Positions 1 through 4,226 of a stretch of 4,226 nucleotides of DNA are shown here, piece by piece. Position 1 is the first letter of the stretch; every line of letters begins with the position of its first letter. The DNA is from a virus (lineage: Duplodnaviria; Heunggongvirae; Uroviricota; Caudoviricetes), in the IMG/VR virus record IMGVR_UViG_2695420739_000014, positions 1 through 4,226 of that record; one strand, given 5' to 3'. The notes under the pieces were generated by a model that worked only from the letters and a program-made list of their open reading frames with translations, made no database searches and was not told the DNA's origin. Position numbers and translations under genes: made by a program.

Positions 1-228
1 CGTGGCTGTCTGGAATATGACGTCAGCGCCACCGACATCACCAGCTCGTTTATGGCTATCCGCAAGAGCATGACCAGCAGCGGACGCAGCGCCACCTATG
101 AGGCCAGCCGCAGCGAGGAAGCCAGCCACGCCGACCTCGCCTGGGCGACCATGCATGCCCTGTTAAATGAGCCACTCACCGCCGGTATCAGCACCCCGCT
201 GACATCCACCATTCTGGAGTTTTACTGA
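1..228 (+). CDS. P: Terminase large (ATPase) subunit, C-terminal 75 codons only; the 5' end lies upstream of the window (P2 gpP-like)
   Basis: Frame 1 is open from base 1 to TGA at 226-228 (translation ends ...ASHADLAWATMHALLNEPLTAGISTPLTSTILEFY*). The stop overlaps the portal ATG as TGATG. Position directly upstream of the portal gene and co-oriented matches the P2 P-Q late operon. Not in the ORF track because it has no long start-to-stop ORF inside the window. Confidence 0.75.
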   Translation, partial: RGCLEYDVSATDITSSFMAIRKSMTSSGRSATYEASRSEEASHADLAWATMHALLNEPLTAGISTPLTSTILEFY

Positions 229-1262
229 TGAGCAAGAAAAAAGGGAAAACACCGCAACCTGCGGTAAAAAAAATGGCCGCCAGCGCCCCGAAAATGGAGG
301 CATTCACCTTTGGTGAGCCGGTGCCGGTGCTCGACCGCCGTGACATTCTGGATTACGTCGAATGTATCAGTAACGGCAGATGGTATGAGCCGCCGGTCAG
401 CTTTACCGGTCTGGCAAAAAGCCTGCGTGCTGCCGTGCATCACAGCTCACCGATTTACGTCAAACGCAATATTCTGGCCTCGACATTTATCCCACATCCG
501 TGGCTTTCCCAGCAGGATTTCAGCCGCTTTGTGCTGGATTTTCTGGTGTTCGGTAATGCGTTTCTGGAAAAGCGTTACAGCACCACCGGCAAGGTCATCA
601 GACTGGAAACCTCACCGGCAAAATATACCCGCCGTGGTGTGGAAGAGGATGTTTACTGGTGGGTGCCGTCCTTCAACGAGCCGACAGCCTTCGCACCCGG
701 CTCCGTGTTTCACCTGCTGGAGCCGGATATTAATCAGGAGCTGTACGGCCTGCCGGAATATCTCAGCGCCCTTAACTCTGCCTGGCTGAATGAGTCAGCC
801 ACGCTGTTCCGCCGCAAGTATTACGAAAACGGCGCTCATGCCGGATACATCATGTACGTCACCGATGCCGTGCAGGATCGCAACGATATCGAAATGCTTC
901 GCGAAAACATGGTTAAGTCGAAAGGCCGCAACAACTTTAAAAACCTGTTTCTCTATGCCCCGCAGGGGAAAGCTGACGGCATTAAAATTATCCCGCTCAG
1001 TGAAGTGGCGACGAAGGACGATTTTTTTAATATCAAAAAAGCCAGTGCCGCAGACCTGCTGGACGCGCACCGCATCCCCTTTCAGTTGATGGGCGGCAAG
1101 CCGGAGAACGTCGGGTCGCTGGGTGATATTGAGAAAGTGGCAAAGGTCTTTGTCCGCAATGAGCTTATCCCGTTACAGGACAGGATTCGGGAAATAAACG
1201 GCTGGCTCGGTCAGGAGGTCATCCGCTTTAAAAACTACTCACTGGACACTGACAACGGCTGA
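228..1262 (+). CDS. Q: Phage portal protein (P2 gpQ-like), 344 aa
   Basis: Complete ORF ATG 228 to TGA 1260-1262. GGAG at 216-219 sits 8 nt upstream of the ATG. The translation (MSKKKGKTPQP...EAFTFGEPVPVLDRRDILDYVECISNGRWYEPP...) is recognisable to me as the P2-family portal; length and position next to the terminase gene and about 170 bp from cos agree with P2. Confidence 0.93.
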   Translation: MSKKKGKTPQPAVKKMAASAPKMEAFTFGEPVPVLDRRDILDYVECISNGRWYEPPVSFTGLAKSLRAAVHHSSPIYVKRNILASTFIPHPWLSQQDFSRFVLDFLVFGNAFLEKRYSTTGKVIRLETSPAKYTRRGVEEDVYWWVPSFNEPTAFAPGSVFHLLEPDINQELYGLPEYLSALNSAWLNESATLFRRKYYENGAHAGYIMYVTDAVQDRNDIEMLRENMVKSKGRNNFKNLFLYAPQGKADGIKIIPLSEVATKDDFFNIKKASAADLLDAHRIPFQLMGGKPENVGSLGDIEKVAKVFVRNELIPLQDRIREINGWLGQEVIRFKNYSLDTDNG

Positions 1263-1267
1263 ACATC

Positions 1268-1289
1268 GCCGCCTGCGGGCGGCTTTTTT
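1268..1289 (+). terminator. Rho-independent terminator downstream of the portal gene
   Basis: Perfect 6-bp GC stem GCCGCC (1268-1273) / GGCGGC (1278-1283), 4-nt loop TGCG, followed directly by TTTTTT (1284-1289), starting 6 nt after the Q stop codon. Confidence 0.8.
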
Positions 1290-1431
1290 ACACCCTGTCA
1301 TCACGCCCTCACACGCTCACCACCGCACAAAACACCCCGCAGACACACCAACGCCTCAACGGGCAGACTAAACGCCGTCACGACGCGCTCAGACGCTGAA
1401 AAAATAAAATCAGCACCACCGCCAGCGCGCA

Positions 1432-1450
1432 GTGCTTTCCCCGCCTCGCC
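1432..1450. other. cos cohesive-end site of a P2-like phage (19 nt)
   Basis: GTGCTTTCCCCGCCTCGCC at 1432-1450 is the reverse complement of GGCGAGGCGGGGAAAGCAC, which I recall as the 19-nt cohesive end of phage P2. It lies in a gene-free gap between the portal gene and the converging replication/cargo genes, as in P2. Confidence 0.85.
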
Positions 1451-1540
1451 CGCCCGCTTCATGGGACGCTTTTAATGCAGGAGCATCAGGAGCCTCGCGC
1501 CGCGCCAGCGCTGGTGCTGACTGGCAAATTCTGAAATAAA

Positions 1541-1558
1541 AAACGAATGCAAATTCAT
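1541..1558 (-). terminator. Weak candidate intrinsic terminator downstream of the DUF2971-like gene
   Basis: On the - strand, 21 nt after the TAG stop: 6-bp AT-rich stem AUGAAU (1558-1553) / AUUCGU (1548-1543) with one G-U pair, loop UUGC, then UUUUUUAUUU. The stem is weak, so this is tentative. Confidence 0.3.
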
Positions 1559-1578
1559 GCACCGTATGTATGCAGAGG

Positions 1579-2397
1579 CTATTTAGACTCAAGTTGGATT
1601 TTATAATTTGTAAAATCAGCTTTTGCTGTCATTATTTCAATGCCATTTTTTTTGGCGAAATTTTCAATAAAAACTCGCATATCTCCGGATAGACGCTCGC
1701 CAATAATTATCGCATCAATGCAACATCCTTGCAGGGGAACTTCGATACCACTCTGATGTTCATAAACAGCCTCAGTATCGAGGAAATGCAAGCTTCTTAC
1801 CTCATCCTCTCGCTCCCAATCAGAATGTTTAACAAGTGCAAAATCAAAATTCACAGACACCGGTTCACCACGAGCCATCTCAAGGAGATATTTATAAAAA
1901 TCAACTCTAGGGGCTTTATCGTCATATGTAACATCAAAAAGTTCAATACCCGACCCCTTCAACCTTTCTCTATTATATGCAAAACATATTCCTTTCATTC
2001 CGTTTCCATAATAACCCCACATCAATCTACTATTATAGTTTTTAGTAAAACTTGCTACTGCAACATTCTTTTGAAACTCGATTAGAAAACCACTAGCAAA
2101 ACCGTCCCCCCACACTTCATCAAAGCGTTGATAAATCTTACCAAGCTCATTTTTATCTAATAGTTCTCGAAGCTCCCTCCCTTCACCTGTAATTTTATCC
2201 AATCTATCTATCAGGGTTGATATATCCGACTTATCGAAATACTTAAGGGATTCTTTATCAAAATGATAAAACATGTCAAATGGGTCATTAAGAATGCTAT
2301 TTTTGGAATGCCAAATAGCATTGTTAACAAGCTCATTTATAGTATTGATGTTATCCCCTCTAAACCTGAAGATATGAGTTGCACTTGAAAGAATCAT
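1579..2397 (-). CDS. DUF2971-like protein (272 aa), AT-rich accessory gene; candidate defence/abortive-infection effector, function unknown
   Basis: ORF from ATG (2397-2395) to TAG (1581-1579). AAGGGG Shine-Dalgarno-like sequence 5 nt upstream of the ATG. Spot counts give about 27-42% GC per 60-nt block against about 60% in the portal gene. Motifs I associate with DUF2971: N-terminal ...AIWHSKNSILNDPFDMF... and central ...LMWGYYGNGMKGICFAY... No Walker A P-loop. Confidence 0.8.
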   Translation of the reverse strand: MILSSATHIFRFRGDNINTINELVNNAIWHSKNSILNDPFDMFYHFDKESLKYFDKSDISTLIDRLDKITGEGRELRELLDKNELGKIYQRFDEVWGDGFASGFLIEFQKNVAVASFTKNYNSRLMWGYYGNGMKGICFAYNRERLKGSGIELFDVTYDDKAPRVDFYKYLLEMARGEPVSVNFDFALVKHSDWEREDEVRSLHFLDTEAVYEHQSGIEVPLQGCCIDAIIIGERLSGDMRVFIENFAKKNGIEIMTAKADFTNYKIQLESK

Positions 2398-2463
2398 TCT
2401 GGCCCCTTTTCAGCCGGTCAAGAAAAGTAAGACTCTAACGCCTCACTCGCTCGTTGTTCAACC

Positions 2464-2498
2464 CCGCCAGCACTGAAAGCAAGTTTCAGCACCAGCGG
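2464..2498. repeat. Imperfect inverted repeat in the intergenic gap upstream of the DUF2971-like gene
   Basis: 15-nt arms CCGCCAGCACTGAAA / TTTCAGCACCAGCGG pair at 11 of 15 positions around a 5-nt spacer GCAAG; the inner 6 bp (CTGAAA/TTTCAG, 2473-2489) are perfect. It sits between the small-ORF stop (2511) and the DUF2971-like start (2397). Confidence 0.4.
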
Positions 2499-2510
2499 TG
2501 TTTGCTATGG

Positions 2511-2741
2511 TCAACGTGGCCGCGGAATTATCGGACCTCTCGCTGGTATGAATGATCCATTTTGCTGATTGCTGATATCACGGAGCTTACCGTAATTATC
2601 CCTGACTATTTCGGCACACCCGACCAGCTCGTCAGGCGTCAGATTTTCGTTAACCATAATCTGCTGTAGACGGTGAACAATAGCCATCAGCTTGATATTT
2701 TTAGTTTTATGTTGCGGTATCTCGCCTGGTATTCTGTGCAT
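2511..2741 (-). CDS. Hypothetical small protein (76 aa from the ATG at 2741; the ORF-track start at 2753 is a GTG)
   Basis: ORF ends at TGA 2513-2511. The ATG at 2741-2739 overlaps the TAA stop (2743-2741) of the upstream gene as TAATG, suggesting translational coupling. No strong Shine-Dalgarno sequence and no family recognised (MHRIPGEIPQHKTKNIKLMAIVHRLQQIMVNENLTPDELVGCAEIVRDNYGKLRDISNQQNGSFIPARGPIIPRPR). Confidence 0.4.
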   Translation of the reverse strand: MHRIPGEIPQHKTKNIKLMAIVHRLQQIMVNENLTPDELVGCAEIVRDNYGKLRDISNQQNGSFIPARGPIIPRPR

Positions 2742-3196
2742 TATCCAAGCCACCCGTTTTGCTGTGCACGCTCCATCTGTTCATCTGAATAGTTCCATGC
2801 TCCATCCGTGGCAACCATTGCCCCGCCAGACATCCCCGTCTCTGGTTCATACATAACAGCAAGGCCGAGCTGATGCATAATTTCATGATTAATTCTGAAT
2901 ACCAGACCACGCTCACTAAGTTCTTTCCAGTTCACAATCTCATATGCGCCTGTATTAAGCAGCTCAATACTTAGCAAGACATAATCTTCCAGCCAGTCTG
3001 ACAGGTCAGTAACATCTGTTATCCGGGCTTCAACCTTTCGCCCCGTATACACACCCTGTACCCATTCATGCAAAATCAACGTGTCCCCGCGCTCATAATT
3101 ACGGTCATTTTTCCGAAACTCTGCGCGTTTCTTTCCTTCCAGCACAAGGTCAAAATATTTGGCGTGCAGCTTTACCTCGTGAATTTTTGCCATCAT
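2741..3196 (-). CDS. DUF3850/ASCH-like (PUA-fold) domain protein with C-terminal HExxH motif, 151 aa
   Basis: Start assigned to ATG 3196-3194, which overlaps the TGA stop of the A-like gene (3195-3193) as ATGA; GGAG lies 5 nt upstream. The ORF-track start at 3229 is a GTG inside the A coding region and is less likely. N-terminal MAKIHEVKLHAKYFDLVLEGKKRAEFRKNDRNYERGDTLILHEW... resembles DUF3850/ASCH domains. HEIMH is encoded at 2887..2873. Stop TAA 2743-2741. Confidence 0.75.
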   Translation of the reverse strand: MMAKIHEVKLHAKYFDLVLEGKKRAEFRKNDRNYERGDTLILHEWVQGVYTGRKVEARITDVTDLSDWLEDYVLLSIELLNTGAYEIVNWKELSERGLVFRINHEIMHQLGLAVMYEPETGMSGGAMVATDGAWNYSDEQMERAQQNGWLG

Positions 3197-4226
3197 TTCC
3201 ACTCCATTACTGTTGAGAATCCCGGCCACTCATCAGCGACCGGATACGTGAATTTTTTCCCGTCATAATTTACGGTCGCGCCACGCGCCAGCGCCTCAAG
3301 CTCCCATCGCTGCGGCCTGATACCGTTCTGAGCAAGGTCAACGCGGATACGGGTAATTTGCATTCTTTCCGACCGGGTCAGTCTGGCCGATGGTGCAATT
3401 TCATGTGGTTTTAACGGGCTTCCGTTTCTCTGCTGACGGTTTGGCGTTCGCAGGTCGTGTTTTAATGCGCCCCTGAGCGCCCTCACGACCTCCGGTTCAT
3501 TCCATTCAATAACACCGTCATCAACCAGATTAAGCACGGCTGCGGCGTGCTCAGAAGGTGTGGGAGCCGGTAACGAAGTATCACCACCGGTGAGCTTTCC
3601 ACAGTTATTGACAGGACTCCGAGGCGCGGCGATGCCGCTTTTTAAAGTCAGAGGCTCAACGACCGGAACTTTCGGCACAATGCGCCAGTCCGTCGTTCTG
3701 GTGATATGAATATGACGCGCGCCGAGATGCGGCGCGTAAATGCCGACCACTCTCTCGACTTCTTCCTCGTACTCGTTAACTTCATCCGACGGACTACGGG
3801 CGACCCTGACAGTCTGACAATCGCGCGGGACATTTGCCCCACCCTGCGCGCTGATATACAACGCAAAATCACCACTGTCTGCGGCGGCGCGTGCAGCCTC
3901 GACGCGCTCGTCAAACTCATCAGCAATGCTGACGCCGCGAGGCAATTTGCGTAGTTCACGGTAAGCCCCCATTGTCGGCAGACCAACCGTTTTAAATTGT
4001 GGGATGCGCCACGTTGACGCCCATGCGGTAACAGCCGCAGCAGTGTCTTTCAGCGGTCTGCCGGTATCGTTATCGAGCTGACCATCCAGTGCATAGCCAT
4101 CGATGTTTTTTGAGATGTATTTCGCGATATACCCCGCAGCACCGCCCTGGTTAAGGTGTTTTGCCTGAAAACGGTTTCGCGCGGCTCCTCTTTCGTCGCC
4201 ATCCTCTTTGAGCGCATAGCGACGCA
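3193..4226 (-). CDS. A: Rolling-circle replication initiator endonuclease (P2 gpA-like), C-terminal ~344 codons; the 5' end lies outside the window
   Basis: The - strand frame is open from the window edge (4224) to TGA 3195-3193; the ORF track shows only the part from the internal ATG at 3972. The translation contains GAAGYIAKYISKNIDG with two tyrosines four residues apart, matching the Y-x-x-K-Y active-site arrangement of P2 A as I recall it. If the first tyrosine is Y450, the implied total length is about 761 aa, the size I recall for P2 A. Confidence 0.85.
   Translation of the reverse strand, partial: RRYALKEDGDERGAARNRFQAKHLNQGGAAGYIAKYISKNIDGYALDGQLDNDTGRPLKDTAAAVTAWASTWRIPQFKTVGLPTMGAYRELRKLPRGVSIADEFDERVEAARAAADSGDFALYISAQGGANVPRDCQTVRVARSPSDEVNEYEEEVERVVGIYAPHLGARHIHITRTTDWRIVPKVPVVEPLTLKSGIAAPRSPVNNCGKLTGGDTSLPAPTPSEHAAAVLNLVDDGVIEWNEPEVVRALRGALKHDLRTPNRQQRNGSPLKPHEIAPSARLTRSERMQITRIRVDLAQNGIRPQRWELEALARGATVNYDGKKFTYPVADEWPGFSTVMEWK
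3608..3627 (-). other. Candidate replication origin / A-protein nick site inside the A coding region
   Basis: The - strand reads GCGCCTCGGAGTCCTGTCAA. The P2 ori is known to lie within gene A; I recall the nick-site sequence only approximately, so this is tentative. It is flanked on the + strand by a GC hairpin GCGGC-GAT-GCCGC (3626-3638) followed by TTTTT. Confidence 0.35.

What the first reader, a model, noticed from the sequence alone, without database searches (positions are those of the whole stretch)
1579..3196. Accessory cargo in the P2-type variable locus between replication gene A and cos
Seen in sequence: three - strand genes (DUF3850/HExxH protein, a 76-aa ORF, an AT-rich DUF2971-like protein) fill the interval between the A stop (3193) and cos (1432-1450). 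Established knowledge: in P2 this interval holds orf91, tin and old; it is a recognised variable locus that carries different anti-phage genes in different P2-like prophages. Inference: this cargo is a candidate phage-defence or superinfection-exclusion module. None of the three proteins has a Walker A motif, so none is an Old-type ATPase. I cannot tell from memory whether the DUF3850-like gene is simply the orf91 equivalent or whether the 272-aa gene is related to P2 Tin.
Basis: partly seen in the sequence, partly recalled or inferred. Interest (0 to 1): 0.85.

Follow-up and report, generated by a model that had tools for sequence, protein, structure and literature searches.

The report
One-gene ADP-ribosyltransferase-like cargo in P2 hotspot
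This is the already-known variable "defence hotspot" next to the packaging site of a P2-like prophage. Only one of the three flagged genes is swapped-in cargo: an untested toxin-like enzyme of a family with one proven anti-phage member.

Summary
The three minus-strand genes, the A stop codon and a cos site identical to P2 cosR are at the stated coordinates.

- The DUF3850 gene is the P2 orf91 equivalent: 73 of 75 N-terminal residues are identical. It carries an extra DUF7415 tail.
- This gene and the 76-aa ORF are translationally coupled to A. The trio is found in 472 of 5426 E. coli genomes at most. They are backbone, not cargo.
- Homology to P2-like phages with other cargo stops at 1486 and resumes at 2435. 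The swapped cassette is therefore about 950 bp and holds only the 272-aa DUF2971 gene (GC 36%).

The DUF2971 protein is unrelated to Tin or Old.
- It matches PADLOC candidate PDC-S31 (E 6e-33).
- It keeps the family-invariant Tyr and ExE residues.
- Relatives sit in this same hotspot in Enterobacter, Yokenella, Pantoea and 186-like E. coli prophages, with different neighbours.

Best reading: a stand-alone, NAD-dependent ADP-ribosyltransferase-like anti-phage gene, analogous to Lactococcus Aristaios. It is untested. The hotspot is published (Rousset 2022).

It is a new member of a known kind, of modest interest.

A conserved 70-nt hairpin element marks the A-side edge of the cassette.

The parts
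1..228 (+). 3' end of the large terminase gene (gpP); context only
   Evidence: Annotated as terminase ATPase/large subunit in the aligned records.
228..1262 (+). Portal gene (gpQ). It is the cos-distal conserved flank of the hotspot.
   Evidence: Pfam Phage_portal at 3.3e-14. Annotated as portal in ES5 and vB_YpM_50.
1268..1290 (+). Intrinsic-terminator-like hairpin plus T-run after Q
   Evidence: Scan result GCCGCCTGCGGGCGGC followed by TTTTTT.
1432..1450 (.). cos, the 19-nt cohesive-end sequence
   Evidence: Identical to the annotated cosR of P2 NC_001895.
1487..2434 (-). The swapped cassette (about 950 bp, GC 0.38). It contains a 37-nt leader, the DUF2971 ORF and a 3' flank. Its cos-side edge lies between 1486 and about 1570, depending on the comparator.
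   Evidence: Homology to P2-likes with other cargo (L001, L002, L023, L024) ends at 1486 and restarts at 2434/2435. 186 and Enterobacter L005 share the GGTGCAT...TGCAT motif at about 1540-1570. GC value.
1579..2397 (-). 272-aa DUF2971 protein. Predicted ADP-ribosyltransferase-fold enzyme and candidate single-gene anti-phage effector.
1533..1565 (-). Weak intrinsic-terminator-like hairpin (1565->1543) plus U-run (1542->1533), 14 nt after the DUF2971 stop
   Evidence: RNA fold of 1490-1582(-) gives the hairpin ACGGUGCA/UGCAUUCGU followed by UUUUUAUUU. It was not picked up by the consensus scan, so it is tentative.
2435..2504 (-). Conserved 70-nt non-coding boundary element. It has a 15-bp hairpin (2498->2464), then GGGGTTGAACAACGAGC...GAGGCGTTAG. 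It contains a promoter-like TTGAAC-N18-TAGAGT. Conservation stops exactly at ...GTTAG, where cargo begins.
   Evidence: Distribution: found in 66 phage records including 186, PSP3 and Wphi, and in 500 of 5426 E. coli genomes, never annotated. Structure: 95% of cells paired, 5 pairs with double changes, 0/500 shuffles reach this. Pairing is 95% in the A-sense strand against 81% in the opposite strand. Boundary: cargo-specific sequence follows directly. No Rfam match.
2511..2741 (-). 76-aa conserved small ORF of unknown function. It belongs to the backbone and has a variable Pro/Arg-rich C-terminal tail.
   Evidence: phrog_11386 at 5.7e-43 over the full length. Its start overlaps the DUF3850 stop (TAATG). 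Homologues occur in E. coli, Enterobacter and PSP3 in front of different cargo.
2741..3196 (-). The P2 orf91 equivalent: an N-terminal DUF3850/ASCH domain plus a C-terminal DUF7415 domain (HExxH at residue 104). It is the tail of the early/replication operon, not cargo.
   Evidence: Pfam DUF3850 at 7.9e-18, DUF7415 at 2.3e-14, ASCH at 9.2e-11. 73/75 residues identical to P2 Orf91. ATGA overlap with the A stop. At most 472 of 5426 E. coli genomes match this region.
3193..4226 (-). 3' 1 kb of replication gene A, which runs off the window. It is the conserved flank of the hotspot.
   Evidence: The frame is open to the window edge. It aligns to the intact 761-aa A of ES5. phrog_91 'nicking at origin' at 9e-81. 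1712 of 5426 E. coli genomes match.

Best explanation
The window is the cos-proximal variable locus (hotspot) of a P2-like prophage.

Backbone. The early/replication operon ends with A, an Orf91-type DUF3850+DUF7415 gene and a 76-aa ORF. All three are translationally coupled. A conserved 70-nt hairpin element follows them.

Cargo. Between that element and cos lies a single foreign, AT-rich cassette of about 950 bp, carrying one gene. Its 272-aa DUF2971 product is predicted to be an NAD+-using ADP-ribosyltransferase-fold enzyme. Its nearest structural relatives modify nucleic acids: Tpt1/KptA and DarT.

Proposed mechanism (inferred, not shown):
- The protein works as a stand-alone, antitoxin-less anti-phage effector carried by the prophage.
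- It is held inactive. Candidate autoinhibitory parts are the large helical insert (residues 48-111) or the C-terminal alpha/beta subdomain (residues 215-272).
- On infection by a competing phage it ADP-ribosylates DNA, RNA or an essential protein. This blocks phage replication or aborts the infection, as DarT, CmdT and the DUF2971 protein Aristaios do.

Acquisition (inferred): cassette replacement using the conserved flanks, namely the 70-nt element and the cos region.

Shown here: the anatomy, the cassette boundaries, the family and fold assignments, conservation of the putative catalytic residues, and recurrent residence in the hotspot.
Inferred: enzymatic activity, substrate, trigger, expression in lysogens and the defence phenotype.
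For: Location and turnover:
- The gene lies between gpA and gpQ next to cos. This locus is published as an anti-phage hotspot (PMC9122126; PMC9519451).
- The cassette is in 5 of 5426 complete E. coli genomes, while 1712 carry the A gene.
- Precise homology breaks at 1486 and 2435.
- GC is 0.36 against 0.56 for A.

Family:
- Full-length match to PADLOC candidate PDC-S31 at 5.8e-33.
- Pfam DUF2971 score above the gathering cut-off.
- A DUF2971 protein, Aristaios, is an experimentally validated single-gene abortive-infection system (PMC11381338).
- DUF2971 has been independently classed as a DarT-like ART with a conserved Tyr and ExE (PMC12522546).

Structure:
- The model is confident (pLDDT 87, pTM 0.80).
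- DarT also tops the Foldseek list.

Catalytic residues: Y130 and E197-x-E199, together with N37, D38, K190, W194 and R201, are invariant across 65 relatives of 18-50% identity. All are present here.

Context: relatives at 49-74% identity, and a 33% clade, all sit in the A-to-portal interval of P2/186-like prophages. Hosts are Enterobacter, Yokenella, Pantoea, E. coli and a metagenome. Neighbours differ and no constant partner gene is seen.
Against: - No experiment exists for this clade. PDC-S31 is only a candidate, and no paper mentions it.
- The hotspot also carries non-defence cargo, such as partition systems and cytolethal distending toxin. Only 3 of 8 new P2-hotspot systems tested by Rousset et al. 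gave protection.
- Fold similarity is remote. Foldseek E-values are not significant (best 0.14), and no PDB sequence match was found.
- ART motif I is ambiguous: H8 is not conserved family-wide.
- No strong sigma-70 promoter lies upstream. The best candidate, TTGAAC-N18-TAGAGT, matches 8 of 12 positions and fell below the scan threshold.
- The gene is co-directional with the early operon, which the prophage repressor keeps off. Expression in a lysogen is therefore unproven.
- tblastn found no relative in 50,697 isolated phage genomes.
Confidence: 0.55

Rival explanations
1. The DUF2971 enzyme serves the phage's own lytic programme. It would be transcribed by read-through from the early operon and would ADP-ribosylate host targets or host defence factors. 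This would be host takeover or counter-defence, as with T4 Alt/ModA/ModB, rather than protection of the lysogen.
For: - Same strand as A, Orf91 and the small ORF.
- No canonical terminator between the small ORF and the gene. The hairpin at 2498-2464 has no U-run.
- No strong promoter of its own.
- In a 186-like prophage the start codon is only 17 nt after the conserved element, so the gene would lie on the SOS p95 transcript.
Against: - The gene is dispensable and rare: 5 of 1712 A-bearing E. coli genomes.
- Other co-directional cargo at this same site includes validated defence genes.
- It matches a defence-candidate model, and a family member is an Abi system.
- No relative was found in sequenced lytic or temperate phage isolates.
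Confidence: 0.15
2. The gene is non-defence cargo. It could be a lysogenic-conversion toxin or effector acting on eukaryotic or competitor cells, or a selfish toxin-like gene with no benefit against phages.
For: - The hotspot also carries virulence cargo, such as cytolethal distending toxin in about 2% of loci.
- About 18% of DUF2971 proteins were predicted to be secreted effectors, and Legionella lpg1268 belongs to the family.
Against: - No signal peptide or transmembrane segment is visible in MILSSATHIFRFRGDN... (sequence).
- No secretion or delivery partner lies in the cassette.
- This clade is restricted to P2/186 hotspots in commensal Enterobacteriaceae.
Confidence: 0.1
3. One reading: the three genes (DUF3850/HExxH, 76-aa ORF, DUF2971) together form one accessory defence or exclusion module.
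For: - All three lie between A and cos on one strand.
- Rousset's pipeline counts every gene between gpA and gpQ as part of the locus, and lists 'DUF3850/ASCH + hypothetical...' arrangements.
Against: - The two upstream genes are backbone. They share 73-78% nucleotide identity across 2435-2700, and 93-95% overall, with phages carrying unrelated cargo.
- They are translationally coupled to A.
- The DUF3850 gene is 97% identical to P2 Orf91 at its N-terminus.
- The region matches at most 472 E. coli genomes, against 5 for DUF2971.
- Enterobacter relatives have DUF2971 directly after A, without DUF3850 or the small ORF.
- Neither upstream gene has a PADLOC hit.
Confidence: 0.05

Closest known systems
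P2 cos-proximal (gpA-gpQ, 'tin-old') anti-phage hotspot (Odegrip 2006; Rousset et al. 2022, PMC9122126; Vassallo et al. 2022, PMC9519451)
   Same: Same position, between replication gene A and portal Q and next to cos. Same behaviour: conserved flanks, and low-GC cargo that differs between otherwise near-identical prophages. DUF2971-containing arrangements already appear in Rousset's Table S5.
   Different: Canonical P2 carries tin and old on the opposite strand, and its homology to this window stops inside orf91 at 2973. Here the cargo is one gene on the A strand. This DUF2971 clade was not among the systems tested.
Aristaios (Lactococcus plasmid pUCCL641_199, 316 aa; PMC11381338)
   Different: Gram-positive plasmid rather than an enterobacterial prophage. 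316 aa against 272 aa. tblastn against plasmids found no Lactococcus match, and all plasmid hits were 31% identical or less. A direct comparison was not possible because the sequence is not held. Aristaios is validated as abortive infection; this protein is untested.
DarT of the DarTG toxin-antitoxin defence system
   Different: No detectable sequence similarity. There is no DarG macrodomain antitoxin or any constant neighbour. The window's protein has large helical inserts and an extra C-terminal subdomain.
Tpt1/KptA RNA 2'-phosphotransferase
   Different: Only 8% identity. Tpt1 has a housekeeping role in tRNA splicing, not a mobile-element role.
PADLOC PDC-S31 (phage defence candidate, single gene)
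   Same: Full-length HMM match (PDLC04990, 5.8e-33, residues 5-270 on profile positions 5-256 of 259).
   Different: PDC-S31 models are generic DUF2971 models. More distant relatives score higher: 150 bits against 113. It is a computational candidate with no published validation that I could find.
P2 Orf91 (for the DUF3850 gene)
   Same: Same position and the same ATGA coupling to A. 73 of 75 N-terminal residues are identical.
   Different: P2 Orf91 is 109 aa and lacks the DUF7415/HExxH C-terminal domain. The 150-aa fused form is the common one in E. coli prophages.

Membership tests
P2-type gpA-gpQ cos-proximal variable hotspot | Lies between replication gene A and portal gene Q, adjacent to cos | tested here: met
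   A occupies 3193-4226(-), Q occupies 228-1262(+), and cos at 1432-1450 is identical to P2 cosR.
P2-type gpA-gpQ cos-proximal variable hotspot | Content differs between closely related prophages while the flanks stay conserved | tested here: met
   The flanks are 91-98% identical in phages and prophages that carry other cargo. The breaks are at 1486 and 2435. Five E. coli genomes hold this cargo, against 1712 with the A flank.
Pfam DUF2971 (PF11185) | Score above Pfam's gathering threshold | tested here: met
   26.4 bits against a cut-off of 22; E 1.8e-5; profile positions 1-88 of 89.
Pfam DUF2971 (PF11185) | Retains the residues that are invariant across the family | tested here: met
   N37, D38, Y130, G136, K190, W194, E197, E199 and R201 are invariant in 65 sequences of 18-50% identity. 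All are present in the window's protein.
ADP-ribosyltransferase superfamily | ART fold (split beta-sheet NAD-binding core) | tested here: inconclusive
ADP-ribosyltransferase superfamily | Catalytic motifs: (H/R) on beta-1, Y or S-x-S as motif II, E or ExE as motif III | tested here: inconclusive
   Y130 and E197-x-E199 are invariant, as reported for DUF2971. Motif I is unclear: H8 is conserved only in this clade, and R11/R13 are consensus but not invariant.
ADP-ribosyltransferase superfamily | Binds NAD+ and transfers ADP-ribose | not testable with these tools
   This needs biochemistry.
DarTG toxin-antitoxin defence | Adjacent DarG-type macrodomain antitoxin | tested here: not met
   The cassette holds one gene. 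Neighbours differ in seven contexts, and none is a macrodomain by Pfam.
DarTG toxin-antitoxin defence | Sequence homology to DarT | tested here: not met
   A profile search of all PDB sequences, which include DarT, found nothing below E = 1.6. No PADLOC DarT model was hit.
PADLOC PDC-S31 candidate | Full-length match to a PDC-S31 HMM | tested here: met
   PDLC04990 at 5.8e-33, covering residues 5-270 of 272 on profile positions 5-256 of 259. PADLOC's own calling thresholds were not available.
Aristaios single-gene Abi | DUF2971 domain in a stand-alone protein on a mobile element | tested here: met
Aristaios single-gene Abi | Direct sequence relatedness to pUCCL641_199, and an abortive-infection phenotype | not tested
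   The sequence (PRJNA1086404) is not held in the tools. tblastn against PLSDB gave no Lactococcus hit. The phenotype needs experiments.
P2 Tin / P2 Old | Sequence similarity to Tin or Old; Walker A ATPase motif for Old | tested here: not met
   BLASTP E is 0.68 against Tin and 0.58 against Old. There is no Walker A motif.
P2 Orf91 (DUF3850) - for the 2741-3196 gene | Same position and coupling after A, and a homologous DUF3850 domain | tested here: met
   ATGA overlap with the A stop. 73 of 75 residues identical. Pfam DUF3850 at 7.9e-18.
HExxH zinc metallopeptidase - for the DUF7415 domain | Strictly conserved HExxH plus a third ligand in a protease fold | tested here: inconclusive
   HEIMH is present at residues 104-108. 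However, the first His is Lys in the Yokenella homologue. The domain is only about 53 aa long and modelled at pLDDT below 50. No peptidase family was hit.

The most novel reading that the evidence does not exclude
This clade could be a self-contained nucleic-acid ADP-ribosyltransferase immune protein. It would need no antitoxin because its helical insert or C-terminal subdomain acts as a built-in phage sensor and autoinhibitor. Its delivery into P2/186-family genomes would be organised by the conserved 70-nt, strand-specific hairpin element. That element would act as a dedicated cassette docking or expression site (site-specific or ssDNA-based exchange, or a shared promoter/processing signal), rather than as a passive block of flanking homology.
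Probability: 0.12. Interest if true: 0.6.

Novelty: new member of a known kind. Interest (0 to 1): 0.3.

Why it matters
If the DUF2971 gene protects against phages, it would add an enterobacterial, prophage-borne ADP-ribosyltransferase-like single-gene system to the P2 hotspot catalogue. It would also give an E. coli-tractable model for a very large and almost uncharacterised family: 16,667 cluster representatives at E <= 1e-3. Only one member of that family, Aristaios, has a phenotype, and none has a known substrate.

The exact cassette boundaries and the conserved 70-nt edge element also give a practical handle. They could be used to mine cargo automatically in P2/186-like prophages, and to ask how that cargo is exchanged and expressed.

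None of this overturns current understanding. The hotspot, the defence-candidate status and the ART prediction are all already in the literature or in databases.

Tried and rejected
Searches that found nothing or nothing significant:
- Rfam scan of the whole window at E <= 1: no match.
- NCBIfam: no family for any of the three proteins.
- tblastn of the 272-aa protein against 50,697 phage records: no match.
- Profile search of PDB sequences: nothing significant.

Hypotheses rejected:
- Tin or Old relatedness.
- SOS control of the cargo. LexA-box search (CTGT-N8-ACAG, up to 1 mismatch) gave two sites, at 430-445 and at 2777-2792. About three are expected by chance, and neither lies upstream of the cargo.
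- The promoter-like site at 2421->2393 as the gene's promoter. It overlaps the start codon, so it cannot serve this ORF.
- A disrupted A gene. The ORF listing showed A as 3193-3972, which suggested a break, but direct translation shows the frame is open to the window edge.

Dead ends:
- The structure model of the DUF3850+DUF7415 protein.
- Odegrip 2006 (PMC1367236) and Nilsson 2004 could not be read. I could not check whether the 70-nt element has already been described as a recombination site. [quoted passage not shown]
- Aristaios could not be aligned directly, because its sequence is not held.
Full report
**1. What the window is.**
The window is a P2-like prophage segment, read in the opposite orientation to the standard P2 map.
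- The + strand carries the end of the large terminase gene and the portal gene Q (228-1262; Pfam Phage_portal). A terminator-like hairpin follows at 1268-1290.
- Window 1450->1432 reads GGCGAGGCGGGGAAAGCAC. This is identical to the annotated 19-nt cosR of P2 NC_001895.
- The - strand carries replication gene A from the window edge to its stop at 3193-3195. The ORF listing showed a 259-aa fragment, but translation shows the frame is open to the edge. It aligns to an intact 761-aa A in E. coli ES5.
- The whole window is 98.4% identical to the ES5 prophage.

**2. The observation.**
All three - strand genes exist as described.
- 1579-2397: 272 aa, DUF2971.
- 2511-2741: 76 aa.
- 2741-3196: DUF3850/ASCH plus DUF7415, with HEIMH at residue 104.
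- None has a Walker A motif.
- The DUF2971 gene is AT-rich: GC 0.36 and GC3 0.30. The other two genes are at 0.46-0.47, and A is at 0.56.

**3. Only one of the three genes is cargo.**
- Canonical P2 is homologous down to 2973, which lies inside the DUF3850 gene. The first 75 residues are 97% identical to P2 Orf91. This gene is therefore the orf91 equivalent. P2 itself has a shorter, 109-aa version without the DUF7415 domain.
- The gene's start overlaps the A stop (ATGA). The 76-aa ORF's start overlaps its stop (TAATG). This is typical translational coupling within one operon.
- P2-like phages and prophages that carry unrelated cargo stay homologous from A through both genes down to 2435. On the cos side they are homologous again from 1486. 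The examples are vB_YpM_50, 'P2SIAC10', E. coli AR_0081 and MS 16-3.
- In AR_0081 and MS 16-3 the order is A, then a 150-aa DUF3850 protein, then a 68-77-aa ORF, then different cargo.
- In a Yokenella prophage, DUF3850 and DUF7415 are separate genes upstream of A.
- Counts in 5426 complete E. coli genomes: 1712 match the A segment. 472 match some part of 1451-3196, mostly 2590-3196. Only 5 have the full interval including DUF2971.
- The swapped unit is therefore 1487-2434, about 950 bp. It contains a 37-nt leader, one ORF and a short 3' flank with a weak terminator-like hairpin and U-run.
- The DUF3850 pair is semi-conserved backbone, present next to roughly a quarter of P2-type A genes. It is not part of the cassette.

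**4. What the cargo protein is.**
- Family matches: Pfam DUF2971 above threshold; phrog_1762, function unknown; PADLOC candidate PDC-S31 over the full length at 5.8e-33.
- The PDC-S31 models are generic DUF2971 models. More distant relatives score higher.
- It is unrelated to Tin and to Old.
- An exhaustive profile search finds 16,667 cluster representatives at E <= 1e-3, but only 28 at E <= 1e-30. This is a small clade of a huge family.
- With 38 homologues, AlphaFold gives pLDDT 87 and pTM 0.80.
- Foldseek ranks DarT first, but not significantly. Sequence searches of the PDB find nothing. The fold call is therefore supported but remote.
- Across 65 relatives of 18-50% identity, the invariant residues are N37, D38, Y130, G136, K190, W194, E197, E199 and R201. 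A Tyr plus an ExE motif was also reported when DUF2971 was classed as a DarT-like ART (PMC12522546).
- All these residues are intact here, so the protein looks like an active enzyme rather than a relic.

**5. Context of relatives.**
- Every relative whose contig I fetched lies in the A-to-portal interval of a P2- or 186-like prophage, on the A strand, with different neighbours.
- Enterobacter hormaechei (60% identity) has it directly after A. E. asburiae has it after a 76-aa ORF.
- Yokenella and Pantoea have it with DinI or AIPR neighbours. A metagenome contig has it with DUF7380.
- A 33%-identical clade in a 186-like E. coli prophage follows tum/DinI and an orf97-like gene.
- There is no constant partner, and no macrodomain. 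It behaves as a stand-alone gene.
- No relative occurs in 50,697 deposited phage genomes. Distant relatives (31% identity or less) occur on plasmids.

**6. What is already known.**
- The gpA-gpQ locus is a published anti-phage hotspot. It has 1,650 arrangements in 18,150 loci. old-tin and three of eight new systems were validated. The locus also holds non-defence cargo such as partition systems and CDT (PMC9122126). Vassallo et al. found four new systems there (PMC9519451).
- Rousset's Table S5 already lists DUF2971-containing arrangements with a different protein. DUF2971 does not appear in their table of tested systems.
- A DUF2971 protein from a Lactococcus plasmid, Aristaios, is a validated single-gene abortive-infection system with a predicted ART fold (PMC11381338).
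- ART toxins in defence are established for DarT (DNA) and CmdT.

**7. Best explanation and its limits.**
- I conclude that the cargo is a stand-alone ART-like candidate anti-phage effector acquired by cassette replacement. My confidence in the defence role is about 0.55. My confidence that it is an ART-fold enzyme is higher.
- The weak points are expression and validation.
- The gene points the same way as the repressed early operon. The only upstream promoter-like sequence is TTGAAC-N18-TAGAGT, matching 8 of 12 positions. No experiment exists for this clade.
- The main rival is a lytic-cycle, phage-benefiting ART (confidence 0.15).
- Co-directional cargo at this exact site is common, however, and includes validated defence genes. 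Orientation alone is therefore weak evidence.

**8. The boundary element (noticed in passing).**
- Immediately upstream of the cassette, at 2435-2504 on the - strand, lies a 70-nt non-coding element.
- It is about 90% conserved from P2-like phages to 186, PSP3, EtG and Klebsiella phages.
- It is present in 500 E. coli genomes and is never annotated. Canonical P2 lacks it.
- It contains a 15-bp hairpin with compensatory changes. 95% of cells are paired, 5 pairs show double changes, and 0 of 500 shuffles reach this.
- Pairing is better in the A-sense strand (95%) than in the opposite strand (81%), because of 36 G.U cells. This points to an RNA or single-strand DNA role.
- Conservation stops exactly at ...GAGGCGTTAG, after which the sequence is cargo-specific in every locus.
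- In 186 the element sits between orf97 and the terminator t95b.
- Its function is unknown.

**9. Verdict.**
- It is a new member of a known kind.
- Interest is about 0.3.

Noticed in passing
window 2435-2504 (- strand); also L015 (phage 186) 2501-2571, L016 (PSP3) 2501-2593, L005 4885-4965: A conserved, unannotated 70-nt element lies at the A-side edge of the variable locus. It has a covarying, strand-asymmetric 15-bp hairpin, followed by GGGGTTGAACAACGAGC..GAGGCGTTAG. Conservation ends exactly where cargo starts. It occurs in 66 phage records and 500 E. coli genomes, is absent from canonical P2, and has no Rfam match. Possible roles: a cargo promoter or 5' element, a 3' processing signal of the early/SOS operon, a single-strand DNA signal, or a recombination site.
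   Followed up: partly
window 2741-3196; L004 (P2) 4317-4646; L010 226-522 and 819-992: The Orf91-type gene is modular. Most E. coli P2-likes have DUF3850 fused to a DUF7415 domain (150 aa). Canonical P2 keeps only the first 75 residues in common. A Yokenella prophage encodes DUF3850 and DUF7415 as separate genes upstream of A. The HExxH motif's first His is Lys in the Yokenella copy.
   Followed up: partly
window 2511-2590 (3' third of the 76-aa ORF): High-identity homology to most E. coli P2-likes breaks at 2590, inside the small ORF. Its first 54 or so residues are conserved. Its Pro/Arg-rich C-terminal tail differs between prophages.
   Followed up: partly
L024 (E. coli MS 16-3) 3139-3200 and 1899-2900: In this prophage the cos-like sequence lies in the middle of the variable interval, and an extra gene sits between cos and the portal gene. 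Cargo can therefore lie on both sides of cos.
   Followed up: no
L011 (Pantoea) 4001-7159: Here the conserved 70-nt element lies downstream of the DUF2971 gene (4900-4926). An 85-aa ORF and an AIPR (abortive infection) gene follow it. The hotspot can therefore stack several candidate systems, and DUF2971 is not always the first gene after the element.
   Followed up: no
window 2250-2279 (- strand): The best sigma-70-like match in the region (TTGACA-18-AAGAAT, 10 of 12 positions) lies inside the DUF2971 ORF, on the sense strand. It is probably a by-product of AT-richness.
   Followed up: no
L003 (E. coli ES5) 847-1919: The closest full-length match to the window is a prophage whose major capsid gene is annotated as frameshifted. 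That copy may be defective, even though its hotspot cargo is intact.
   Followed up: no
L015 (phage 186) 1763-2494; L006 4169-4900: 186 orf97 is annotated 'expression from plasmid blocks 186 infection'. It sits just upstream of the conserved element. An orf97-like 243-aa gene precedes the DUF2971 gene in the 186-like E. coli prophage.
   Followed up: no
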